Position numbers and translations under genes: made by a program. DNA of 62,888 bases, filler included, from Circinaria calcarea (taxonomy: Eukaryota), in NCBI GenBank assembly GCA_051942165.1. It is 10 parts of 10 records of this genome, joined end to end, with 100 filler letters (N's around TTAATTAATTAA, not from the genome) between each part and the next. Parts side by side here need not be neighbours in the genome. Positions count along the whole stretch, not along the records: positions 37,850 to 44,038 come from JAVECS010001646.1; 9 more parts are not named here. The stretch is one strand, 5' to 3'. Numbering within the stretch: the first letter of the stretch is position 1; each line of letters begins with the position of its first letter. Below the pieces are notes generated by a model that worked only from the letters and a program-made list of their open reading frames with translations, had not been told where the DNA came from and did no database searches. This document shows positions 6,218 to 58,578 of this stretch, one piece after another.

Positions 6218-6317
6218 NNNNNNNNNNNNNNNNNNNNNNNNNNNNNNNNNNNNNNNNNNNNTTAATTAATTAANNNNNNNNNNNNNNNNNNNNNNNNNNN
6301 NNNNNNNNNNNNNNNNN
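6218..6317. other. Artificial contig-joining spacer (N44 TTAATTAATTAA N44); also at 12533, 18848, 25152, 31453, 37750, 44039, 50326, 56610
   Basis: Identical 100-nt linker with stops in all six frames; the flanking contigs decrease steadily in length (6217 to 6179 nt). Confidence 0.98.
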
Positions 6318-12058: not shown

Positions 12059-12499
12059 ATGTGCCACGCCAACCTCGTCGTCTACCTCTGCGACTGCCTC
12101 GATCGCGGCCTCCTGATCCGCTGCGCCGCCTCCCGCCTCCCGCCCCGACACCGACCCTGCCGCCAGGCCACGGCGACCGTTGGCCAGCTGCACAGCCGGT
12201 GCCCCAGGTGCCTGCAAGCTGAGGAGATGGCAGGGACGCATGGGGCAAATGGGCATGGGACGAATGGGAACGGGCATGCCACGAACGGGACGAACGGGCA
12301 CGTCACGAATGGGACGAACGGGCACGCCACGAATGGGACAAACGGGCACGCCACGAACGGGACGAACGGGCATGCCACGAACGGGACTCCCAGCACAAAC
12401 GGGACTCCCAGCACGAACAGAACCCCCAGCACAAACGGGCACAGAACGTTCTGGCTCAGGATCGATGACGACGAACCGTCATCTGGGGAGGAGAGATAG
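12059..12499 (+). CDS. Small Cys-rich protein with Asn-Gly-His repeat tail
   Basis: MCHANLVVYLCDCLDRGLLIRC...C...CPRC followed by (TNGHATNG)n; TATAAAAA near 11846; GC-rich third codon positions. Confidence 0.7.
   Translation: MCHANLVVYLCDCLDRGLLIRCAASRLPPRHRPCRQATATVGQLHSRCPRCLQAEEMAGTHGANGHGTNGNGHATNGTNGHVTNGTNGHATNGTNGHATNGTNGHATNGTPSTNGTPSTNRTPSTNGHRTFWLRIDDDEPSSGEER
12240..12440 (+). repeat. Coding tandem repeat (24-nt units encoding TNGHATNG, then 18-nt units encoding TNGTPS)
   Basis: Repeated ACGAACGGGCACGCCACGAATGGG-like and ACAAACGGGACTCCCAGC-like units. Confidence 0.85.
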
Positions 12500-19518: not shown

Positions 19519-22500
19519 CTACCAAGCCCCTGCATCATTATCGAACCGGCTCAACTCCCTCCCCGCATCCTCGACGTCCTTTTTCGCCTTCATGCGCATG
19601 TAAAAGATGGGGCAATCGCGACTGCTACAAATGACCTCGCAGTGCAGACTGCCCTGGCAGCGCTGACACTGCGTCCACAGCCGGCCAAACCGGACCTCCA
19701 AATCCGAAACCTTGTGCAGCGTCTTCTGGTACAGCTCGCCCATGCGCGGCTGGCAGTTGGCGCAGATGGCGCCGGCGGATTCTTCCTTACCCACCAGGGG
19801 TTTCTTACAGCCCATACAGGTAGCCGTCTTCTTGGCGAATTTCATAAGGCCGCCGAGCGTGGGTGCGGCCACGGAGATGGAGCGTGTGTGTTCGCCCGTG
19901 AGGAGCTGGCCTGCTTTCTTTTCGCCAAGGATGGGTACAAAGATGCGGCCGAGGGGTTTGGCGAGTTGATTTTCGAGGTAGTATTTCGTGTCGATGGGGA
20001 TGTTGTTTTCGAGCACGAAGATGGGGTCTTCGGAGCGTTCATAGTTGGAGGCTCCGCCGGCGCCTTTGATGATCACGTAGGCAACACGGTCGCCGAGGGC
20101 GGGGGCGGAACCCGCGTCTCGCTTTTTCATGCGTTTGGCAAGTTCGACATGAGCTTGCTTACCGGCGTATTCCGTGTCGTCCTTGGACAATGCCTTTGTA
20201 ATGACGAGTTTGGACATGTCGATCTTGTTTTGGAGAAGGTCAGATATGGTTTCTTTGACATAACTAAACCTTGTTAGCAGAAGAAGGCAAGAGCTGTTAA
20301 TGAAAACCTACTCTTGCGCGCCTTGGACGTCCTGATCGATCAGGATCTTTCGCAAGACGGTCTCAATGACATTTTGCACCATTCGACAGTTATCTCTCCG
20401 TACTGTTTCGATGCCTTTACTATCCATCTTGTCATACTTTTCTGGTGAAGTCCAGTACAGGCCTGCATATCTCTTTTTGTTGATTAGTAGGTACGGAAAA
20501 TAGACCTTCTCGAATTCCAACTTGATAGGCTGAATGAACTTCGAAGAGACGAATTTGGCAGCATCTCGACCCAAGTCCATTGCCTTTTCCAACTCTTTCG
20601 GACCGAACTTGACCATGACGGAATCGGTATCACCATAAATGACATGTGCATCGTGGGAATAGCCATTCGCGATCGTGTACCGTGCTTCGACCTCTTCCTT
20701 TGTCCTCTCAATCATCTGCCGGCCATAGGAAGTTGTACTGCTTGCAATAGCCAAACAAGGTAATTTGCCAACCGTAGCTCCGGTAATACCATAGACACTG
20801 TTCGCGCTAATCTTCAAAGCCAATTGCCTACCATTGAGTACGGCTTTCTTGAACGGGTCAGTCTCGATAGCAAGCTCCTTCTTGGCCCGTTTCCTTGCGC
20901 CTAGTAACTCTTCCAAGATTTGTGTCAGAAGACCTTTACGTATCTTTGACGTGCAAAACATATCGCCATTGGGAGTGATAATGTAGTCTTCGTCCTTCTT
21001 CATATTATCCTTTTCAACATTGGCCTTTTTTAGCCAAGTCGTATAGCAAAGATTATGTGCTTGGATAATACTTGGATATAACGATGCAAAATCAAGGGTG
21101 GCGATAGGAACATCGTAATAGCCTCTTGTAGGCTCTATGACTGTGGCTCCTTCATAAGCTTCTTCAGATGCGTCGTTCTGTAGATTGGGAATAACCAGGT
21201 TTTGCTGCAAGGCTTTCCGAAACAATTGACTGATGAACTTCACCTGTTGTCCTCTTGCAAGTAGGTAGTTGAACGGGACACCAGTCACTCTCGCCATTTC
21301 CGTATAGTTGACCAGACACATAAGCTTATCCATCAGTCGCTGAGGGAGATAGGCGTCTTTTAGACAGTATACGGCTAGTCGACGCCTTGATTCTGGTGTG
21401 CCGTTGTATAATTCGGTAATCATAGTGTGGTGGACGTCTTCCTTCTGCTCGCCCAGGAATTGGGCACAGACAGAGTTCAGGGTATAGCTTCGAAGCTGGT
21501 GATCTCGTTGCACAAGTTGAAGAAGATCCAATTGCAGTCGCCCATTGGTGTTTGTCGCTTTGGTATCTCGATTGCCCATCTGCTTGCTGGAGAAATTGGT
21601 CTTCTTGGCTTGGGATTGGATGCTCTTGAGCCGCGACCAATACGGAAACTTGGTACATTTCAGGTGCTTCGCTCGATCAAGAAGATATGGAAAGTCGAAA
21701 TTGGCAATGTTGTAGCCAATGATCACGTCGGGATCGACTTTATCCAGAAAATTTCTCCATGCCATTAACATCTTTTCCTCGGCATCAAACTCGAATATTT
21801 GGGTATTAACAATGAGACTACAAGTATCGAGGACGAAGACATTGCGGACGAAAGGCCTGGCTTCTCCATATTTTGTAACAACATTGGCGATTTGGATGAC
21901 CGGGTCATGATCTGCTTCAGGAAAGACGCCTTTACGTCCAGCGCACTCGATATCGAACGACAGGATACGCAAAGGGGCCATCTTTACCCATTCACCGTCG
22001 TTGTTATGTGCGATCATGTCTCGATAGTTGACAGATGCTTCTATCTGGCAGTTGGAATGACGATCTCGATGCGGTATCATGTGATACTTGGTTGGTGCCA
22101 CTTCTACCCAAGACATGCCTGAGATCTAAGCAGATTAGCAGAAGACAGTTTGAGGACATGTTCTAGACCTACTCCAGTGTCAACCATAAACCGTAGTACG
22201 TATTGTAGACTGTCAAAAGTAAAAATACCGCCATCCACGCCCTTCCACAAGCCCTTGTAATTGGCACTCCCACTTTCAATTGTAGTCCGTAACTTGTTGA
22301 TGTACTTAGGGTCCGTAACTGTGACCTTCAGGTAGGGGCTTTTCTGATTGCCTTGGAAGCCATAGATGTTCTCGCGCAGCACCATTTGCACCGAATATAT
22401 GGCCGGCTGATATTGTGCCAACTGGGTCTCGAGGTATGATTTGAAGCCGTCGCAATCTGACTTTGCAAAGGAGAAGGGTGCAGCGACGTAGAGATAGTGC

Positions 22501-22981
22501 ATAAAATCAGTAACATGTAAGAGTACCGAGTGACCAGTCTGCAGGACGAGTGGAATGAGTTGATTGCCCATACGCTAAGACGAATCTATCAACATACCTC
22601 AGTCACACCAAACAGCTTGACCGTTGTTCTTCCTCCGTTCAAAGTGCCTTCCTCTGCATCGATTTGCTGAAAGCATAGACTGTCTTTGGTTTCATCAAAG
22701 TCCTCCAAACCGGGACGTTCCCACTGCTGATCCCTTTCGGAGTTCTTCTGCTTGAGGCCATTGATGTCTTGGGTTAACTTTTCCAGAACCTCTTCTTCAA
22801 ACTGACTCTTGGGCTGGCTGGAACCAGGTGCGCTGTTTGCGGCCTTGGGTGCTTTCAACTTGATAGCAGATCCACCGTCAAGCTTCCGCCTCTTGGGTGA
22901 CGGGACATGGTTGATATTTCGGTGTGTCTTTGTCGAGTCTCCCAGGACGCGTTTCGCCGGCTGCAGTACGACCGCAGGCAT
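19519..22981 (-). CDS. POL3: DNA polymerase delta catalytic subunit
   Basis: Four exons. Exo I SFDIEC; Pol motifs [26 protein letters not shown]-terminal CysA/CysB (CMGC..CANC, CQRC..C..DCPIFY). Confidence 0.98.
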
Positions 22982-33319: not shown

Positions 33320-34906
33320 ATGGCGAATTCTCCGGTTCAGAATGCGCTGCCACCGCTTCCTGCATATCATCTTACTCCCCTCCCTCCTCTAGTCGCGCCG
33401 ATTCCCGACAAGCTCCTCACTCTCCTCCTCCCAATTGCCGCGTACTGGATTCTGTCCATGATGTTCCACTGGATCGACACCAAGGACTACTTTTCCCAGT
33501 ACAGACTTCATACGCCTGCAGAAGTGTTGAAGAGAAATCATGTCTCGAGATGGGAGGTCGCACGCGACGTTGTGATTCAGCAAGTGGTACAGACCATTGT
33601 CGGCACTTTGTTAGGCATGACAGAGCCAGATGACTTCTCCGGAAAGGATGAATATAATGTAGCGGTATGGGCTCGGAGAATTCGGATATCGCAACGGGCA
33701 ATTCCAGGGCTGCTGTCCTTGGTTGGCGTCAATGCACCAGGCTTGGCTAAGAATTTGGCTGGATCATACCCCATGTTAGCCAGCGTAGTGTCTGGGGGAT
33801 CGTATCCATTCCTAACGGAAATGGTCACTTTTGGACGTGGTCAGTCAACTTCAGCGCCAGCCTTCACAGTCTGGGAGATTGTCCTCGCGAAAACCCTTTA
33901 CTGGTATGTAGTACCGGCGCTCCAATTCGGATTGGCCATCTTGATAGTGGATACCTGGCAATACTTTCTGCATCGTGCTATGCATATGAACAAATGGCTT
34001 TACAGTAAGAACGTTACTGCTTTCTGGAAGTGCGAACGGAGTAAAGCTGATTTCATTCACAGCTACCTTCCACTCCCGTCATCATCGACTCTATGTACCA
34101 TATGCTTTCGGCGCTCTGTACAATCATCCATTCGAAGGCTTCCTTCTAGATACCTTAGGTGCAAGTGTTGCATTTAAGTTAGCCGGCCTTAGCACTCGAC
34201 AAGGAATGTGGTTCTTCACGTGCTCAACCATCAAGACCGTCGATGACCATTCTGGATATGCATTGCCTTGGGATCCTTTGCAGCATTTGACGTCAAACAA
34301 TGCTGGTTATCACGATGTTCACCACCAAAGCTGGGGCATAAAGGTAACTACCGTGTGACCTGTTATCTGAGCTGTCTAACCACCTGATAGACAAACTTTT
34401 CTCAACCGTTTTTCACATTTTGGGATCGGATATTAGGGACTGTATGGACTGGGGGAGACGTATCTGTTCGATATGAGCGTGCTCGTCTGACAGCGCAACG
34501 AAGAGTTGACCAGGACAATAAGCAAAGGACAATCACACACTCATCCGCGGCCGATAGTATGACCCAAGACTTTAAACCTTACCAGGATGAGCTTCAAAAT
34601 GCTCTGAAATTACAGCAGGTACCTCCTGAGGAACAGGTGCCGTCGCCGCCGAAAGGAAAGGCTGAGCAGCAGGCAGCTGGCTCGCGTGAACAGGTATTGG
34701 AAGATCACCGTGATGGAGGGCACCAGGTCTTGATTGAAGAGGCGCAAGAGGAGAAAGAAGCCAGAAGTATGATCCGGAAAAGCAACCGACGAAGGGCAGC
34801 AAGTTCGTTAACGCAGAGTGACAGCTTCAGAGGTCTGACGGAGCGGGTCACTGGGAGCATGCACGGGAGGACGGGAGGGATTCTCGGCATGGAGAGCAGC
34901 CGATAA
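33320..34906 (+). CDS. SUR2: Sphinganine C4-hydroxylase
   Basis: His boxes HRAMH, HSRHH, DDH and HDVHH; YVPYAFGALYNHP; KTNFSQPFFTFWD; two introns. Confidence 0.95.
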
Positions 34907-37749: not shown

Positions 37750-40423
37750 NNNNNNNNNNNNNNNNNNNNNNNNNNNNNNNNNNNNNNNNNNNNTTAATTA
37801 ATTAANNNNNNNNNNNNNNNNNNNNNNNNNNNNNNNNNNNNNNNNNNNNGGGGAGGAAGAAGTGGGATTATGAGTAATATTGAGAGGATGGGGAGGGGAA
37901 GGGGTATGGAATGAAGAAGGTCCGAACAGGAGGGACGGGAATTGGGAGTGCGAGGACTCCTCCATGTGACTTGGAGGTTGGCTGTTTCCCAAGCATTGAG
38001 TCTGTTGTATTCTTTTTGCTCAGTTGAATACCATTCTGTTTGCCGGTCTCACGCATCTGTATTCCTAGGCAAAGCACCACGCCTCTAGGCACGGTGGTGT
38101 CTGCGGTGGTGCTTGGGTTAATGTCGAGATGATCATTTGATAGGACTGCTGATGTCCAACTTGATTCGTAAATCTAGCTTCCAGCCCGACTCGGCAAACG
38201 TGCAAGCCTTCTATTCATCATGTTGTGCAAACGAAGGGCGGAAACCCCTGGCGTAGAATATGTATACTTGTTATCTCATCTTGCTATGATCTGCAGCTCA
38301 AGGGACGACGAGACGCCATCAGTAAAGAAAGAGCAGGCGGTTCTTCGCTCTCTCCATTCTTACTACCTTATCCCGACTTTTTCGGCATGTGGATCCTCTC
38401 GCTCTGTAATGAGGATCGCTGTTCGGGTTTCCTTTCCTTTCGGCATTTTCTTGCATAGGGAGGGGCGTTGGTTGAAACGGGTTTCGTTGATCAATCCCTT
38501 TCGGTCTCCTCTTCCAGCACAGGAAAGGTTTGTTGATAGAATGTGCTTCCAATCTAGAGGCTATTCTGGTATGCGAGCAGACATTTGCGAATACAGCCGC
38601 TCCCTTTACCTGGGAGCAAGAAGCTTGGGGGCGTACGGAGGTCTGTGAATTGAGATTGATACTGTCACCCCTGGTTTCTTTTGATTCCGGAACAACCATC
38701 CTTTCGAGCGCTACGGAAGGGGGCGAAATGGGACTGTAGAAAAACTCCACCTGGTATGGAGGAAGCATTCCTCCGTATATTGAATGTCGATAAGGAGTGC
38801 AGACTCTGAGCTGATTTTATAAAGGGAGACTGTTAGTGCACCCAGAGATGCTATTTATATACGTGAATAGGAATGAGTCGGTGGTCTACTGCCGTCAAGG
38901 AAATGTAGAAAGATCAAGCTTAAACTAAAGTAATTAGAGAAGGGGGCGTGAGCCTCAGGGGAGGTGCCCTTGAGGGACCGGCATTAAGTGAAAGTGCACT
39001 GGGGGTTTTGAGATGCAATCAGTGGAAGCCTTGAGTCGGTCACAGTCGGTAGAACTTTAGGAAATTCCAGACCACCTGATAAAGGTGTGGTCCAAACATT
39101 CCAGGGCCATCTGACCTTGTTAATGATTGCTAGAGCTCCTAAAATGTACAATAGTCCTCTAGGCTCGACCAATGAAGTAACTTAGCTGATAGGATGGCAT
39201 AGTTATGTAATCCTCTGGTGGATCAGCGGCCTTCCTACTTTTAGCAATTCCAAACTGAGAGGTCGGCTGGCTTTAAATCCACAGACATCACGGCCAAGAT
39301 ATGTGATAGTGATCTCGGTTCCTCTATCAGGTATCGATGGCCGTTAAGGCAGCGAGGCGAGCTGATGTATTTGAACATGTGAGGGACGAGTTGTTAGAGT
39401 GTTCCGATAGGATGTTCGGAAGGCTTATGTCGTTCCATGCACGTGCTAGAAACGGCCGATCTCAAGTTGCATGATGCATTAAGGGACGGCTACGGGTGGG
39501 GGTTCAGTCGTTGTTTGAATGGGTGTATTGCCATTGGGGGAGACTGCTCTCAACATTGATTGAGCCAAGTGATGCCCAGGGGCGGAATCGGCCGATGACT
39601 TCTATATGGATGTCAATGCAATCGATCGACGTCAGCACAAACGGGCGGGTTAGATGCTCTCTCAATCTCCTCGGACAACGGGCAGCCATGATAGTAAGAC
39701 AGAAGGGAGCGGGAGGAGCTCAAGTGGCGCTCATGCGCAGTAGCTTCCCTGGAATCGACGTTCATGCTTTATCTGGCGTGACCAGTTGGGGGCGATGGGG
39801 GACCGTGCCAAACCTGAGCAAGTATTACAGGCATGCTGACGAATGGCATCCACACCAGACGACGCGCGGTGGCTCGAATGCAGGAGGACGGATTCCGGGG
39901 TATTGCAAAGGGAGGGGTGGATGGTTCAGCCTGCTGTCTTGGATGGATAAGGGATAGACGAGGACCATTGCCCGGACAATGGGATTCCGGCCAAAGAGCC
40001 ATCGAGGAGATCGCCTTCGAGACCAGAAAAGCTATCGGCCATCCGTCCCAACTCATCCCGTGCATCTACTGGGTACTTGGACTTCACTTCGTGAAAGATC
40101 GGGCGGTAGCGCATTTTGGGCCTGAAGCTGGTGGTGCCTGGCTGCCTGGCTGTGGGGATGGAAGGCCGACGATTACTGCTACTACTGCTTGGACTAAGCG
40201 CCCCCCTTCCCCGGTGATCGCCGTTCCCCCTCCGCCAAAGGACTTACCCTCGATCTGGCTTCCCTTAAAAGGGCTGGCTCATCTCCAATTCCCCCCTTCC
40301 ACTCCCATCTCTCTCAACCTCAATCCGCTATCCAAACCACAATTAACAACGTCCGACTTGGTATTCCCACACTCAATCTCTTGAACTTCCCCTTGACCTT
40401 TGCTTGATTTACCTTCATCCATA

Positions 40424-40602
40424 ATGGGTAAGGTCCTTCCCAGCTATTTGGAGTCGAACTGTGATTGACTCAAGGCCGCATTAGGTCCTGAATGTACTTG
40501 CAGCTGCGGCGCCAGCTGTGGATGCCCCAGCGGTCAATGCGCTTGCAAATGTAAGTTTCCGGACCTCCGCCCTCGAACCCACGAGTCTAACGTGAGCTAG
40601 AA
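40424..40602 (+). CDS. Metallothionein A, 23 aa (MGPECTCSCGASCGCPSGQCACK)
   Basis: Exons 40424-40427, 40485-40550, 40601-40602; introns GTAAGG...TAG and GTAAGT...CTAAC...TAG; 7 Cys, no aromatic residues. Confidence 0.85.
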
Positions 40603-41258
40603 AGGACTGTGTGGGACGTGAATTTCCCTGAGGCAGCAGAGGTGGCGGAATGGCTTGCATCGAGGAGAGTGGGGTTGGGGGAAGGGTGGGAATCGGGGAT
40701 TTATGGAAGGTGGATGCTTAAGCAGGCCGTGGGGTATTATGATGGAATAACGATGTGAGCAATACCGTAGCGTTTGCTTTAGCACTTCGTCTACACGAAC
40801 AAATATGGTAGCCCCTGACTCCACCTGCAAAGTGAATGATATGACCATTTTCCATTCACGCCTCCCATGTCCGCAAGGAGAGACAGAGATTTCCCTTGCA
40901 CAGTCCGTCTTTTTTCCATGCCGCTTTGTGCTTTTTCTCGCGGGGAACCATCGGATCATCCCTCAAGGCGGCAACGCATCCACCCATCTCTAGCTGGCAC
41001 AATCCTGGACCCCACCTGACCTACTCATTCGCCCACGGGGTTCAGCCTGACTAGGGCACCTGACACCATCATCATGTCCACCAGCTTCCGCAACCGGTAT
41101 GAGGATAATATATAAAAGGGCCACCGCACTCCCTTTCCTTACCTCTCCATACCAACGCTCGATCACTTTTGATTCATCCAACCACATCCGCCCCCGATCA
41201 ATTCTTGACCTCAAAGCCATCCCCGCAGCACCTCTTCATACAGTCATCCGCCATCAAG

Positions 41259-41390
41259 ATGGGTCCCTGCGCATGCACCTCCTGCTCCTGCAAAGGCGAA
41301 TGTTCCGGATGCTCATGCTCGGATTGCAGCGTGAGTGAACAGCCCTCGCGGTAATTCTATTCTGGCTAGTTGACATGCACCTAGCATTAA
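41259..41390 (+). CDS. Metallothionein B, 25 aa (MGPCACTSCSCKGECSGCSCSDCSH)
   Basis: Exon 41259-41330, intron GTGAGT...TAG 41331-41384, exon CAT TAA; 8 Cys; TATATAAAA about 150 nt upstream. Confidence 0.88.
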
Positions 41391-41856
41391 ATCGATCTTG
41401 CTCCCGAACCAACCGAGTGGGTTGGTGATATTGGCGGAGACGTGGTTAGCGATGGTCAACAAGCGGATATGAAGCACACGTTTTGCGGTGTCGTCGACTG
41501 AGGATGTATATGTGGATGGCAGTCAGATTGGCGTGGTAGCTTCCTTGCATTTCTCTCGACACCGCTGATATACGAGTTATTCGAATTGTTATCTCCGGGG
41601 TGATGGTACACGTGTGGCAATCGGTGTTCTTACAGCATCTTTTCAGCTCAAGTCTATCTCTAAGCAGTAAATTCGTATAGCCCAATTCATTCTCATATAC
41701 CCTATGTCATACTACAAGCCAAACCATTGGCAGATGCGGAGTGATCATGTTAATATGGGACAATGGTCGATGTTTGACTGCTCAACGGTGTCTAAGCGTA
41801 GCATATATCGTTAAGCTGAACTTGACAAGTATCAATGTAGATAGCAAGGCTGACCA

Positions 41857-43538
41857 TCATCCGAGCCCCATTTTCATGTCGTCGCCAATCCCCCAGTCCT
41901 CGTCACGTTCTGGACGTGGTTGTAATTTACGATAGTCAACTTCATCGTCACTTCCGGCAACGATTTTACTTGAGTAGTCACTACTCTTTGCACTCGTGGT
42001 ACTCCCTCTTCTGCGATGACCTCGACGTCTGGCTTGACTGCTGCTGCTACTGCCGGTGCTTGATTTGGGGCTCTGGAAAGTATTCGATGAAGCATCGATG
42101 GGGACTGCTTTCTTTTTGGTGGGAGGGTTCTGGGTGGTAGAATTGCTAGGAGGTGACTTTGTTGGAGTAATAGTCGTATTACGGGTGACCTCGACTAGCT
42201 CAGCGTCTCGATACCATTTACGCCTGCGGGTGTAACGACCCCAGCCATCTTGACGACGTCCGTCATTCCACTAAAATCGAGATTAACAGTGTGACTGCAG
42301 TCGGTATCGTTGCGTAATCGTACCTTGTTGTCATAGTAAATCCATCCTTCATTCACCGCTTTACCTGCTGGGCCACTTGCCGTCTTTCCAGCACTGTCAA
42401 TACGCCATTCGCTATTAGCGGCCCACTGCCAAGCTGCATCCTCGTTGTCAACAATGGGTAATTCAAAGTCATCCTTCGGTGGGGACGGATTCAAATGTTC
42501 GTCAGTCCACGCTGCACGCTCGTACGCGAACATCGAAGTGGTCCAACCGAGTCCAAGCCAACGTCGCTGGTTCTCGTAGATGACAAAGGTAAAACGCAAT
42601 CCCACCGAGGTTGTCTTCTCATCAGTAGCGAGTGAATTTGCAATATCGTTCTGACTCGTATGGCGTGGCGGTAGAGGCGGCGCCGCTTGTTTCCGAGGGG
42701 GTAAGGGTGGAACTTCCATGAAAGTAAGCCCCGTGGCGAATGAAAGAAGCTTCCGGACTGTAAGTGATCGCCATAGTATTGTTCGTGAAACTCGTGCGGG
42801 CCGAGAATGCCAACTTAACATGAATGTTCCGGATGTAAGGATTATACGCCGAGTCGTAATGACATGAAATGGAGGAAATTCAAGTATAGCCCACACCGGA
42901 GTAAGCAAAAGTATACGAAGAAACAAGGTTGTAAGAGCAGGCCGAGTCGTCGCTGAGGTTGCTGTCCTTTGAGTGGACAAAAAGTCCGTCAATTGAAGAA
43001 GAGGATCTAGTAATATATTGCAACGCGAGGTAAAGATATTCAGGGTCTCTACGATCTCATCCAGGCTTTTTGAATGCCTCATGCTTCCCTCTGAATCTTG
43101 TTTCTTATGCCCCTTTACCTTTTCTCCTGTCCAGCCAGTCGAGGACAGAGGAGAGTACCTCCGTGAGTACATTCCGAGTATGAGCACCATAACAACAACG
43201 GGTGGACCTGCCCATTTAATTATGACGTCGCCGTAAAGCACAACTGCCCAGAATCCAGCAACCAGAAGGAAGCTCTCCCATGGATCCCCACTCGACCACG
43301 ACACCAGCCCGGCAAGCTTGTTTAGTGGGAGTATAAAAGGATGAGAGAAAGCAAGGGCGCGAGTTATTTGAGGCGGAGTGGCAACGAGAAGGGGCGACTT
43401 CTGCTGCATCAGAATGGTAGATCGCTGTCGGTTTGCGAGCGAGGCCTTTGAAGGGGAGAATGACGCGGTGGTTGGAGGATTTGGGTCGTTGCTGCTCTTT
43501 TGCGAGCCAGTTTCGGGAGCTTTCCCTGGAGAGGACAT
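41857..43538 (-). CDS. Pex23/Pex30-family peroxin (Pex24p domain)
   Basis: FTFVIYENQRRWLGLGWT, GWIYYDNK / WNDGRRQDGWGRYTRRRKWYRDAELVE dysferlin motifs; one intron near 42270-42322; ends WGIGDDMKMGLG*. Confidence 0.92.
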
Positions 43539-45023
43539 TGCGCTGAGCCAGGGAGTTTCTGTTTCGTGTTAGCGATGTGACAGCACAGCAGAACATATAT
43601 ATGTGCTGGAGAGCGTCCAAATACCAAATGCGGCCATGTAATATCATGCAGTGTTCCTCTGGCCGTCATCCTGAACCGTCCACAAGCTTTGTAGAGGCCA
43701 GAATGGGCTCGAGGAGCAAGGACCGTGAGGAGGTGACTTTCAGTTTAATAGGACCGACTCATCCTAAGCAAGAACTATAACTACCTGCCATACCTGCCTT
43801 GCTTTATCATTCACGAACCAGTACCTACGTAGTAAACCCTGGCGGAGGCAGCATGACCATTAAAGTAGCCGCGGGATAACATGTGATCAACGATGGCAAA
43901 GCCGCTCGCCTAATCTGCCTTTTGCGGAAGATCCCTGGCTTTCATCATTCTGAAAATTAAACCAATATCATTCCTCTCCGCCCTACCGATTGAGGGAGTT
44001 GTAGACCTTGATATCCTTACATGGTAAGATGATTGTGANNNNNNNNNNNNNNNNNNNNNNNNNNNNNNNNNNNNNNNNNNNNTTAATTAATTAANNNNNN
44101 NNNNNNNNNNNNNNNNNNNNNNNNNNNNNNNNNNNNNNGACATATTGAAGACCTGCTGTGAGGGGTGGATGCAAAGTCCCAGATACCCGGGTTAAGGTAT
44201 ATCGACAAAAATCGGAAGGACAGTGAGGATCAAGGGGATGCTACATAGTATATCATCCTCGAGCCTTAAAATAGTACACGTTGGAACGTGCTGAGCTAGA
44301 TCAGAATCTGCAGGGGCAGGTAGGATGCAAAAGAAAAAGTCGGGGCGCCTGCAGCAGTACCATCCAGCCAATGCTTAGACGGAGACGCAGGTAGCCTATG
44401 CTTACGGTGCATCCCTTGCCCGGAGTATTAATTTTAAAAGATGGGGTAGGTAGGTAATTCCATTCATGGAGGATCTAATAATGCAAGGTGTACATTAATA
44501 TATATGCATCAAGGTGGCGTATGGGTGTGAAATGCTGGACCACGTGAGGTAGGCCGACGGCTACCACCCTACATTATGTGCCTCCTGGCCCGGACGCTAG
44601 CCGAAAGCTCGGTATTCCAAATTCGTCGAGTATCTGCGGACTGCCACCCTACCTTAAGGTAGTTGACCATCTGCAAAAAAAGTCCCCGATATGAAAAAAC
44701 GGGGGAGCCGAGCAGCGGTATCAGATGCAGCGGTGGACAATATTAATGTGAAGAAATAATACATTCGTCGCGTCGGTATGTAAGTATCTACATAGGAAGT
44801 TGATCTTGGGATGGCTGCTTACGGATGCGTACAGGGTCACCCTTTTCATGTATATAGCCGAGGCTGAGCCTTATCCTTCCGAAATCAATCGTCGTCCGTT
44901 CACAAAACCTGACAATCTCTGCCAACTCAACCACCTTCTTCATCCTCTCATATTTCCTACATCCCACCTTCTTTCAAGCCTGACGATCCACGAGCGGTCC
45001 AAGATTTTCTTCTTACCGCAACT

Positions 45024-55660: not shown

Positions 55661-56709
55661 CTCAACTCGCGCGCATTGGCATGAACTTTAGAGATAGTTC
55701 TCGCTGGAAAAGCTCAACTTGTTCCAATTTCTTTTTTTCAATAAGCAGCCAGAGTTGACGCTATGTCAATGCCAACTAAACTACCCTTTTCGAACATCCC
55801 TTGAGCCTCGAGGTCCAGCAGCGGCTCAACGTCCTCCGGTTCGAAGCGTTGAAGCTTATATTTGGATTTCTTTTGGAATTTATTTATTTATTTTGGATGG
55901 CTCTCTCCACTCCTCTACCCCCGTCACAGAGGCAAGAAAGGAAGCGAGATCGATTGGAAAGTATAGGGGCTTACCGAAGCTACGTGTTGGACGAGCTCGA
56001 TGCAACCCCTCCTTACACACTTCTCTAAAAAAAGCCTATTTCGCTGCCATAGCTAGTTTAGAATAGTCACCTACATGGCAAATTAATGCATGCCCCAACC
56101 ATATATGAATGGAAATCTCTCGCCCGGATGTTTGAAACCTCCAATCCAAATTAAATCTCTGCCATCCCTCTTCCCTGTTTCAGGCATTCGTGCCGCAACT
56201 TAATATAACTACCTGCCCCAAAGATGGCGACCATACCATTGTGATACACCACACTCCCTCCTCCCATAAAGTAACGCTGGCCTCCCCCCATCCCCCAGTT
56301 GGGAATCACGGAGGCGTGGTCGTCCGGGGCTGGTGGTCTGTCTGAGGAGTTCAAGTGATTTGGCACATTTCGCGTAAGGCGCGCTACTAGCTGCAGTAAT
56401 AAGCTGGTGATAAAATTTCAAGCACGGGATGCTGGAGAAAAAAGAGTCACCGTAGGTAGCTAGGGACTATATATATGTTTCATTCGATCACTTTTTGCTC
56501 AGCCTAACTCAGTTGACACGATCGATGCTTATACCCCTGGGGTCACCATGAGTACGCGTAATATAATCCCCTTTTTCTATATCCATCGTATCTTGATACA
56601 CCAATACCGNNNNNNNNNNNNNNNNNNNNNNNNNNNNNNNNNNNNNNNNNNNNTTAATTAATTAANNNNNNNNNNNNNNNNNNNNNNNNNNNNNNNNNNN
56701 NNNNNNNNN

Positions 56710-58578
56710 TGAGCGACGGCGAGAACTCGAGTCGGGCGACGACCTTGAAGAACTTGAAGAACTCTCAGCTCCCAGCAATCTCTCCGAGGCACGTCGGAGC
56801 TCTTCTTCAAGGCTGCGTGCTGGTTTGACCTTCTTCGACGACGGAGGTTCTGTGGTTGGGGAAGCATTTACTTTCTTTGAGACGTTGATTGAAAAATAAA
56901 CAATGTGCTTGTTGTCACTGGATTCCGTTTCAGGCGTGAGTTGATGGCTGTTTACCTTCGCGGCTGTATGGAATTTCCCTGATTCACCCTCCGCCAAGTC
57001 CTTAGACGAGTCTTCAGACAAAGTTCCTTTCGCTTGCGGACTAGATTCTTCATTTGCTTTGGAATCGAGCTTCTCATCTCCTTTCAACTTGTCTTCCTCG
57101 TCGGCTTCGGAGTACTCCCACATAGTCTTCAAGTCTCCTTTGAAAAGGGCCGTTCCCCACAGTGAGCCCAGCACAGCTGGTACGAGGTATAAAAGCGCTG
57201 GCTGCCCATGCTGGTAGACCTGCATGACACCGAGCGTACATAACATGCCCAAGACATATCCAACAACACTAGCGTGAAAATAGGTCTTTGGGAAAACGCC
57301 ACCATCAATCCGGTCATAGTCCTGAGTGCGAAGCCAGAAGCGTTCTCCCCATCCTCCTGTAGCAGATTGATATTGCGCCTTCAACATCTCGTGGCTTCTT
57401 TTTTTCATTTTGTCCGTCGAACTCTCCTCTTTCTCAATGTTTCCAACTAGAACGTTGTCCTGGAAATCCTTTTGACATTTTTGTTTTCTTAGGTAGAACA
57501 GGTAAAGATCGAAGCGTAATGCAAAACCGATCATCATCCCGGGTATCACAACATCCCCAAGCCCCAGCATAGATAGCGCCTTTTTGTTAGGCTTGTCGTT
57601 TACACCAGGTGGTCTGGGAAAGAGTAGCTTGACAGGGATATCTAGCGATGTAGCTACGGTGATCATCAGTGGCGTGAAAAAGACAAAGTAGATGTCATAG
57701 AAGAAGAGAGCAGTCAAGACAAGAGTACCGGTCCAGCATGTTGTTGGTGACATGAGCTGGAGAGCGCTGTAGCTGAAGCTGAAACCAACGAGATTCGTTA
57801 GCCACCAGGGCTTGTCAACGAGGTTGAAATAAAGTATCGCAAGCACAGCTAAAGAGAACCCGATGCGGTCTTGTGTATTAATAGAGACCCTGACTCCGGA
57901 TAGTCCGCGCATATATGCCTCTAGCATGTAAACTCCTTGCGTAGGAAAGTCTCGTAACGCCCATAGAGCTTTATTCAATCTATGGGGTAACGTGATCCGT
58001 GATAATGGCCCCGGAAGAGGAGAGAACCTGTGCCCTGGGGTTTTCCGACTGGGATCTTGCACGGCCTTAGGGACTGCCAGCCTCTGTTTCCGCTTAATCT
58101 CCCAAATAAGTCCATTATCGCTGTATCTAGCAGGAAAGATGAAAGACGTGACGATGGTCATGGAATCTGTAAGGAGTTTGGTAATTGCTAGTACTCCAAA
58201 TATAGAAAGGTACCAGTTGAGGATCTTATTTAGAATAGCGGGATCCTTTAGCCATTTGATCAGGAAGTAAAGAGCTCCGAGCGTGCAGCCAGTAAGAACG
58301 GGGTAAAGTATGGCATCAGTGGGAGATAATCCTTGCATTTGTTGATCACTCTCTGCCATAACATCTTCATCTTCTTCCGCGTTATTCGTTGTGTTCTTCG
58401 TTTCCTTTGTAGCATCGGCAGCAGATTTGGGCCGTGATAGGGAGGCATGAGCGCCTGTGTAGATTGGAAATAGGGCTGCTACCAGTAGGTGCAGATATGT
58501 TGGAATGTAGGGCTGGATGAGAGCTAACTCATAGGCTATACGTCCAAGTATCTCAGCTGTTGGACCTGGTGTTGACAT
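56710..58578 (-). CDS. Signal peptide peptidase (A22B aspartic protease), 3'-partial
   Basis: Catalytic FFYDIYFVF and LGLGDVVIPG, QPALLYLVP, multiple TM helices. Confidence 0.95.

What the first reader, a model, noticed from the sequence alone, without database searches (positions are those of the whole stretch)
40424..41390. Tandem pair of spliced metallothionein micro-genes with different Cys patterns
Seen: two same-strand micro-genes about 0.65 kb apart with canonical splice signals, encoding MGPECTCSCGASCGCPSGQCACK (7 Cys) and MGPCACTSCSCKGECSGCSCSDCSH (8 Cys plus a terminal His). The first is absent from the ORF track; the second appears only inside an unspliced ORF. Known: 22-26-aa Cys-rich peptides are the fungal metallothionein type (Neurospora crassa Cu-MT, Magnaporthe Mmt1). 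Inference: the two differ in Cys spacing and intron number, so this may be a compact metal-handling locus with different metal preference or regulation, and one that gene predictors would probably miss.
Basis: partly seen in the sequence, partly recalled or inferred. Interest (0 to 1): 0.72.

Follow-up and report, generated by a model that had tools for sequence, protein, structure and literature searches.

The report
Conserved two-type metallothionein micro-gene pair
Two tiny intron-split genes sit one behind the other in this fungus and in several lichen-type relatives; they encode two differently built metal-binding-type peptides of 23 and 25 amino acids, which could be an overlooked metal-buffering kit, though no metal binding has been tested.

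Summary
Confirmed. Both genes translate at the stated junctions and are single-copy. A metagenome scan for gene 2's Cys spacing gave 75 hits, 29 of them true homologues. All 29 end in His-stop: 26 through the same intron, 3 without it. Gene 1 was not searched for, yet lies about 0.7-1.0 kb upstream in 21 of those 26, in six lineages. Four have too little upstream DNA and one lacks it. Its 7 Cys are invariant and changes fall mostly on third codon positions (36/36/191). The Pex24p-domain neighbour recurs in 13 of 29. A Pex tree groups the window with Agyrium/Xylographa and the relatives with Pseudevernia or Heterodermia/Seirophora. Gene 1 shares a six-Cys core with basidiomycete metallothioneins. 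Gene 2 matches, from recall, the 8-Cys+His cadmium metallothionein of Heliscus. Neither has Neurospora spacing. TTTGTGC marks 6 of 9 gene-2 and 0 of 7 gene-1 promoters. No metal transporter or regulator lies nearby. Expression and metal binding are untested. The scan noted another fungal micro-metallothionein pair before (e1-7567741). Known class; the conserved two-type pairing looks new.

The parts
40265..40271 (+). TATA-like box of gene 1 (inferred)
   Evidence: TATA-like words 107-180 nt before the ATG in 6 of 7 gene-1 promoters
40424..40427 (+). gene 1 exon 1 (start codon plus one base)
   Evidence: same ATG-G|GT start in 20 of 21 homologues, the other cut by the contig end
40428..40484 (+). 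gene 1 intron 1, 57 nt, phase 1
   Evidence: same position, 56-133 nt, in relatives
40485..40550 (+). gene 1 exon 2: all 7 Cys, terminal Lys, first base of the stop codon
   Evidence: 7 Cys invariant in 7 of 7 lineage representatives
40551..40600 (+). gene 1 intron 2, 50 nt, splitting the stop codon
   Evidence: relatives complete TAA, TGA or TAG across it; L142 has it moved 4 nt, L167 has an intact stop just before it
40601..40602 (+). gene 1 exon 3, last two bases of the stop codon, then 3' UTR
40925..40931 (+). TTTGTGC candidate regulatory element of gene 2
   Evidence: 6 of 9 gene-2 promoters, 0 of 100 null sets as strong; background 15 of 327 tiles; held-out L180 has it, L159 not
41109..41117 (+). 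TATA box of gene 2
   Evidence: TATA-like word 125-212 nt before the ATG in 9 of 9 gene-2 promoters
41259..41330 (+). gene 2 exon 1: 24 codons, 8 Cys
   Evidence: Gly13, not part of the search pattern, is invariant in 12 of 12 representatives
41331..41384 (+). gene 2 intron, 54 nt, phase 0 after codon 24
   Evidence: same position in 26 of 29 homologues
41385..41390 (+). gene 2 exon 2: His plus stop
   Evidence: His-stop in 29 of 29 homologues, in frame without intron in L159, L169, L180
42195..43538 (-). main ORF of the convergent Pex24p-domain (PF06398) peroxin gene; syntenic neighbour, not part of the system
   Evidence: E 1.6e-95; downstream on the opposite strand in 13 of 29 loci

Best explanation
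SHOWN: two separate, conserved protein-coding micro-genes in tandem, each with its own TATA-like box, kept together across distant lichen-type ascomycete lineages (about 0.97). INFERRED from composition (30-32% Cys in C-x-C and C-x-x-C motifs, no aromatic residue, no signal peptide, small spacer residues): both are cytosolic metallothioneins that wrap d10 metal ions in thiolate clusters (about 0.88). INFERRED from spacing: they divide the work. The 7-Cys peptide carries the C-x-C-x3-C-x-C-P-x-G-x-C-x-C core of the Tremella Cu-thionein repeat and would hold about 5-6 Cu(I), probably as a standing buffer. The 8-Cys peptide with its invariant terminal His is of the Heliscus type and would bind Cd(II)/Zn(II), switched on through a TTTGTGC-binding factor that is not identified. 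The two did not arise by a recent duplication of one another.
For: Exact gene models. 29 homologues of gene 2 with His-stop. Gene 1 upstream in 21 of 26 intron-bearing loci without being searched for. Codon-position changes 36/36/191 for gene 1. Three intron-2 layouts all give the same Cys-x-Cys-Lys-stop end. The promoters of the lineages no longer align (one 33-nt match), so the conservation is selective. Profile comparison of the two families gives 15% probability over 4 columns. PMC4755600 passages: Tremella unit CXCX3CSCPPGXCXC, Cu-thionein, about Cu5 per 7-Cys box. PMC12508003 passages: agaricomycete heptaCys motif shares the last six Cys. The Heliscus MT has eight Cys (PMC13107397 passage); reference titles call it cadmium-specific with a His of metal-dependent behaviour. 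ESM Atlas nearest named clusters are metallothioneins at 0.76-0.82, a lead only. Promoter motif.
Against: No transcript or metal data for this organism. No Pfam or PDB match for either family. Ace1-like sites occur in 0 of 7 gene-1 promoters and 5 of 9 gene-2 promoters (consensus recalled; I estimate about one promoter in three by chance), which does not fit copper induction of gene 1. Agaricomycete heptaCys MTs with the same core bind Cd in vivo (PMC12508003 abstract), so spacing does not fix the metal. The exact Heliscus spacing is recalled, not seen. Four of the six motif-bearing promoters come from one clade; L141, L142 and L151 lack the motif, and one copy lies 790 nt upstream of gene 1. 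L208 has gene 2 without gene 1 in 10 kb, so the pairing is not obligatory. Aspergillus metallothionein-like genes are largely dispensable for copper resistance.
Confidence: 0.55

Rival explanations
1. Both are metallothioneins with the same or broad metal range, and they differ only in when or where they are expressed (constitutive versus induced, mycelium versus thallus).
For: Agaricus crocodilinus has one constitutive and one inducible MT (PMC12508003). Most characterised fungal MTs are Cu-thioneins (PMC13107397). Ace1-like sites are on gene 2's side, not gene 1's.
Against: The two have unrelated Cys spacing, and the terminal His is kept in 29 of 29 gene-2 homologues, which suggests different chemistry.
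Confidence: 0.22
2. Their main job is redox buffering or cell-wall and developmental chemistry (desiccation, light stress), with metal binding secondary, as for Magnaporthe Mmt1.
For: Mmt1 acts as an antioxidant in the appressorial wall (PMC9036806 passage). An Hsp20 gene lies upstream in three lineages and no metal transporter is nearby. Aspergillus CmtA/CrdA deletions are not metal-sensitive.
Against: Strict Cys spacing of cluster-forming type and a conserved His ligand; the closest characterised peptides are metal chelators.
Confidence: 0.18
3. They are disulfide-bonded small peptides (secreted or structural), not metal binders.
For: Small Cys-rich proteins are common in fungi (own knowledge); no family match for either.
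Against: No room for a signal peptide in 23-25 aa, an odd Cys number in peptide 1, and no hydrophobic core residues.
Confidence: 0.04
4. Chance Cys-rich frames with fortuitous splice signals.
For: Loose Cys patterns match repeats often (46 of 75 hits).
Against: Conserved order, intron phases, split stop and synonymous bias in six other lineages.
Confidence: 0.01

Closest known systems
Heliscus (Neonectria) lugdunensis cadmium metallothionein Neclu_MT1, and Colletotrichum gloeosporioides CAP5 (for gene 2)
   Same: Eight Cys (PMC13107397 passage) and a functionally studied His (title of Perinelli et al. 2020 in a reference list). From recall only: about 24 aa, the same Cys spacing and a C-terminal His; CAP5 is recalled as a slightly longer His-terminal peptide.
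   Different: Here it lies in tandem with a second MT type in lichen-type fungi, and the His is on a 6-nt exon. The primary papers were not seen (Perinelli 2020 is not held), so the spacing could not be compared, and Cd specificity is untested.
Basidiomycete 7-Cys metallothioneins: Tremella mesenterica TmMT repeat unit and the agaricomycete heptaCys motif (for gene 1)
   Same: Last six Cys spaced C-x-C-x3-C-x-C-x4-C-x-C, with Pro after the second pair and Gly before the last pair as in the Tremella unit; 7 Cys in all.
   Different: The seventh Cys is at the front, giving C-x-C-x-C, instead of four residues ahead (agaricomycetes) or after the core (Tremella). It is a free 23-aa peptide in an ascomycete. 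Homology versus convergence is open: the bacterial CopY tail also has CxCxxxxCxC (PMC12648655).
Neurospora crassa / Agaricus bisporus Cu-MT (Binz-Kagi family 8)
   Same: Size of about 25 aa, 7 Cys for peptide 1, small spacer residues; peptide 2 ends in a similar C-x-C-x2-C.
   Different: Family-8 spacing is CXC-X5-CXC-X3-CXC-X2-C; neither peptide fits it.
Clustered fungal MT genes: Yarrowia MT1/MT2 and MT3/MT4 pairs, yeast CUP1 arrays, Agaricus crocodilinus AcMT1/AcMT2
   Same: Two or more MT genes per genome, adjacent in Yarrowia and yeast, with different regulation in Agaricus.
   Different: Those are paralogues of one Cys pattern. Here two unlike patterns are kept side by side across distant lineages.

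Membership tests
Metallothionein superfamily | Low mass, high Cys in C-x-C / C-x-x-C motifs, no aromatic residues | tested here: met
   23 aa with 7 Cys and 25 aa with 8 Cys, no F/W/Y
Metallothionein superfamily | Cys positions conserved under selection | tested here: met
   Gene 1, not selected by the search: 7 of 7 Cys invariant, changes 36/36/191 by codon position. Gene 2: Cys fixed by the pattern, but Gly13 and His-stop are independently invariant
Metallothionein superfamily | Binds d10 metal ions in thiolate clusters | not testable with these tools
   needs recombinant peptide, ICP and ESI-MS
Metallothionein superfamily | Expressed, often metal-induced | tested here: inconclusive
   no run could be laid on the locus; intron-free His-stop forms exist in three other contigs, one fused to what looks like an mRNA
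Metallothionein superfamily | Match to a curated MT profile | tested here: not met
   0 Pfam families for 2 window peptides and 16 alignment members; short Cys-biased peptides score poorly, so this is weak
Binz-Kagi family 8 (Neurospora Cu-MT) | Spacing CXC-X5-CXC-X3-CXC-X2-C | tested here: not met
   pattern from PMC4755600 against gaps 1,1,3,1,4,1 and 1,2,1,3,2,1,2
Agaricomycete heptaCys MTs (gene 1) | C-x4-C-x-C-x2,3-C-x-C-x4-C-x-C | tested here: not met
   last six Cys fit; first gap is 1, not 4
Heliscus Neclu_MT1 type (gene 2) | Eight Cys plus a His | tested here: met
   against the passage and title
Heliscus Neclu_MT1 type (gene 2) | Same Cys spacing and terminal position of the His | not testable with these tools
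   reference sequence not in the texts seen; agreement is recalled
Heliscus Neclu_MT1 type (gene 2) | Cadmium induction and Cd detoxification | not testable with these tools
   needs culture and expression data
Aspergillus CmtA/CrdA (Crd2-like) | About 109 aa, 16 Cys, no His | tested here: not met
   PMC5447758 and PMC6762210 passages

The most novel reading that the evidence does not exclude
Lichen-type Lecanoromycetes carry an old, unannotated two-gene metallothionein cassette: a Cu(I)-thionein of a basidiomycete-like build not described in ascomycetes, and a His-terminal Cd/Zn-thionein under a separate, unidentified regulator that binds TTTGTGC. Together they would be a fungal-partner basis for the metal tolerance of lichens.
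Probability: 0.3. Interest if true: 0.68.

Novelty: new variant of a known kind. Interest (0 to 1): 0.5.

Why it matters
Lichen metal tolerance is usually put down to oxalates, lichen substances, wall binding and algal phytochelatins (own knowledge). Searches of the held library for metallothionein with lichen and Lecanoromycetes, or with lichen-forming fungi and heavy metal, returned 0 papers; a third search gave 3 papers, none on lichen metallothioneins by title or abstract opening. Most subscription journals are not held, so this is not proof of absence. A conserved pair of 23- and 25-aa genes that ORF callers cannot see gives two direct, cheap targets for testing an intracellular metal buffer in the fungal partner. 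It is also a natural side-by-side test of whether Cys spacing and one terminal His set Cu versus Cd/Zn preference in minimal metallothioneins. The class is well known, so the gain is a new locus and a new Cys pattern, not a new principle.

Tried and rejected
No RNA holder was listed for 40200-41700, so no reads were laid. Protein-collection searches found nothing: gene 2 within a 40-codon window frame, its 31-aa read-through against 1.84 billion representatives, and the gene-1 alignment (1 candidate, none scored). Peptides this short may be absent from those collections, so this shows neither novelty nor absence. Pfam and PDB sequence searches gave nothing meaningful (three chance hits to a glucosidase at E 6.8). 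A loose five-Cys pattern in the own genome returned mostly trinucleotide repeats (143 matches). The bare gene-1 pattern is unspecific in prokaryotes. The gene-1 pattern found 0 in viral contigs. Rfam found nothing on the contig. Rejected: recent tandem duplication of one gene (different intron positions). Rejected: retention of gene-1 intron 2 as the main product; it adds an eighth Cys but an unconserved tail, and L142 and L167 give the Lys-stop end by other layouts. Rejected: Aspergillus CmtA as the model for gene 2, my first guess; it is the orthologue of a 109-aa protein. Rejected: a wider metal cluster. Not supported: Ace1, animal MRE or CreA-type sites (consensus recalled) as shared elements; the best gene-1 7-mer (4 of 7, 4 of 100 null sets) is absent from the window. 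No structure prediction was run, since a metal-free model of a 23-25-aa peptide would say nothing.

Full report
Setting. The window is a string of separate contigs joined by N spacers. The finding lies on G000:C1646, window 37850-44038, and the 1-kb stretch occurs once in the 31.5-Mb assembly. Protein searches with each main exon find only this place. The neighbour on the minus strand is a Pex24p-domain peroxin. Its named homologues among the 120 listed are filamentous ascomycetes, mostly lichen-type, at 62-69% identity. In a tree of 26 Pex sequences (the window, 5 loci, 14 named and 6 unnamed proteins chosen from those 120) the window falls in a 10-row clade with Agyrium and Xylographa (97/96). 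L148, L167, L170 and L208 fall with Pseudevernia (100/99). L176 sits in an open 8-row fork with those and with Heterodermia and Seirophora. From own knowledge these are two subclasses of Lecanoromycetes. This is one gene with midpoint rooting, and whether this fungus itself forms a lichen is not shown.

Observation. Gene 1 has 23 aa and 7 Cys, two GT-AG introns of 57 and 50 nt, and a stop codon split by the second intron. Gene 2 has 25 aa, 8 Cys and a terminal His on a 6-nt second exon after a 54-nt intron. Each has a TATA-like box about 150-160 nt upstream, so they are two transcription units. A six-frame scan of the whole window for 22-residue stretches with six or more Cys gave four places, two of them these genes.

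Conservation. A DNA pattern for Met-x-Pro and the eight Cys of gene 2 matched nothing in 596 Gb of prokaryote genomes and 75 places in metagenome contigs. I dropped 46 that were poly-Cys repeats or had stops, keeping the 29 with exactly eight Cys in 24 open codons. All 29 end in His-stop, which the pattern did not ask for: 26 through an intron at the same position, and 3 (L159, L169, L180) in frame without an intron. L169 looks like a chimeric transcript contig, and L159 carries a poly-A run. Gene 1 was not in the pattern, yet a 7-Cys homologue lies on the same strand, its first Cys 719-1038 nt before the gene-2 ATG, in 21 of the 26 intron-bearing loci. Four others hold only 200-784 nt upstream. 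L208 has 10 kb upstream and lacks it, as do the three intron-free contigs within their 460-1089 nt. The 21 collapse to six lineages (L176 group, L141 group, L142, L148 group, L167, L170 group); many are near-identical resamplings. Their promoters no longer align with each other or with the window, apart from 33 nt between L141 and L176. Across seven representatives gene 1 keeps all seven Cys plus seven other residues of 20, and differences by codon position are 36, 36 and 191. The first intron always follows ATG-G. The second splits TAA, TGA or TAG depending on lineage; in L142 it has moved four bases so that Lys-stop is on exon 3, and in L167 the stop is intact just before it. All give the same C-terminus, which argues strongly for real splicing. 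The Pex gene follows, convergent, in 13 of 29 loci, at 1-9 kb. L142 lacks it in 6 kb but has the aldo-keto reductase gene, and the gene after it, that follow Pex in other lineages.

What they are. Composition and selection on Cys make both metallothionein-like. No profile or structure library recognises them, and the ESM Atlas gives metallothionein clusters only at lead level. The two families do not align with each other (15%) and have different intron positions, so this is not a recent tandem duplication. Gene 1's last six Cys, with the Pro and Gly between them, repeat the unit of the Tremella Cu-thionein, whose 7-Cys boxes are suggested to hold about five Cu(I) like those of Cryptococcus (PMC4755600, passages). 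They also fit the agaricomycete heptaCys motif (PMC12508003, first eighth of the text and passages). The front C-x-C-x-C differs from both, and convergence is possible because the bacterial CopY tail has the same last four Cys (PMC12648655, abstract opening and passages). Gene 2 has eight Cys and a His like the Heliscus metallothionein (PMC13107397, passages; titles of Perinelli 2020 and Loebus 2013 seen only in reference lists). That the spacing is identical and the His terminal is my recall; Perinelli 2020 is not held and I did not try to fetch Loebus 2013. Aspergillus CmtA is a different, longer protein (PMC6762210, PMC5447758, passages).

Regulation. In the 360 nt from -480 to -120, TTTGTGC occurs in 6 of 9 gene-2 promoters, and none of 100 simulated sets gave a 7-mer as strong. 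Its core TGTGC is absent from 600 nt of all 7 gene-1 promoters. Background is 15 of 327 tiles in the loci and 10 of 174 in the window. Of two held-out promoters one has it (L180) and one does not (L159). Against it: four of the six come from one clade, three lineages lack it, and a copy lies 790 nt upstream of gene 1 in the window. It resembles, from recall, the cores bound by Ndt80-like and Mac1-like factors but fits neither fully. Ace1-like sites are in 0 of 7 gene-1 and 5 of 9 gene-2 promoters, near what I estimate for chance, so copper induction of gene 1 has no support. The genome has two copper-fist domain matches elsewhere. Twenty-two neighbouring ORFs from seven loci gave Hsp20, RING, IBR, GFA, poly(A) polymerase, aldo-keto reductase, TACC, Pam16 and similar families, with no metal transporter or regulator.

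Mechanism. Shown: two conserved, separately promoted, intron-split micro-genes. Inferred: cytosolic peptides that bind d10 metals through thiolates. Most likely (0.55) peptide 1 is a Cu(I) buffer and peptide 2 a Cd/Zn chelator with its own switch. The rivals are the same metals with different timing (0.22) and a mainly redox role as for Mmt1 (0.18; PMC9036806, passages). Agaricus heptaCys peptides bind Cd, and Aspergillus metallothionein-like genes add little to copper resistance (PMC6514546, passages), so neither metal identity nor importance can be read from sequence.

Novelty. Fungal metallothioneins, and adjacent paralogous pairs in Yarrowia and yeast, are known. In ten searches of the held library I saw no description of metallothioneins of lichen-forming fungi or of a conserved pair of two unlike types. 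The library lacks most subscription journals, and no supplements were opened; those of PMC12508003 may list further fungal sequences. PMC8307709, PMC5812535, PMC2873923, PMC7796288 and PMC13593802 were read as passages only and added little beyond what is cited. The scan's own notes hold a convergent pair of 25- and 20-aa spliced metallothionein genes in another fungus (e1-7567741, not checked by me), so micro-metallothionein pairs may be commoner than annotation suggests; no look-alike of this DNA was on record. Verdict: real, a new variant of a known kind, interest 0.5.

Noticed in passing
window 6218-6317 and eight more places about every 6.3 kb: Spacers of 44 N, 12 bases and 44 N join separate contigs. 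ORFs and gene order across them are artefacts; only 37850-44038 is context for this finding.
   Followed up: yes
L208:1-15630: A relative within the Pseudevernia clade has gene 2 and the Pex gene but no gene-1-like pattern in 10 kb upstream; probably a loss or relocation of gene 1.
   Followed up: partly
L169:1-1061 (minus strand): An intron-free coding sequence that looks like elongation factor 1-beta (recognised by eye, not tested) is joined to an intron-free gene-2 homologue with UTRs; probably a chimeric transcript contig.
   Followed up: partly
L142:7088-7147 and L167:10799-10861: Natural intron-boundary shifts at gene-1 intron 2: moved four bases upstream in L142, left in the 3' UTR behind an intact stop in L167; the protein end is unchanged.
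   Followed up: yes
L176:14625-15602, L148:14343-15269, L167:19377-20069; G000:C1330:6187-7158: An Hsp20 gene lies 4-10 kb upstream of the pair, divergent, in three lineages. The own genome's closest match is on another contig, so linkage there is unknown.
   Followed up: partly
G000:C860:441-524 and G000:C2422:2382-2465: Two copper-fist (PF00649) matches, candidates for AceA- and MacA-like regulators.
   Followed up: no
window 38319-38768 (minus strand): A 149-aa ORF upstream of gene 1 with no Pfam family over its cut-off; the ORFs of nine relatives' loci hit only the Pex gene on this contig. Gene status unclear.
   Followed up: partly
window 12059-12499: A 146-aa ORF with a Cys-rich start followed by tandem Thr-Asn-Gly-His-type repeats.
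   Followed up: no
window 19519-22981 (minus), 33320-34177, 56662-58578 (minus): Ordinary-looking genes recognised by eye only: DNA polymerase delta catalytic subunit, a sphingolipid hydroxylase-like gene and a signal peptide peptidase-like gene.
   Followed up: no
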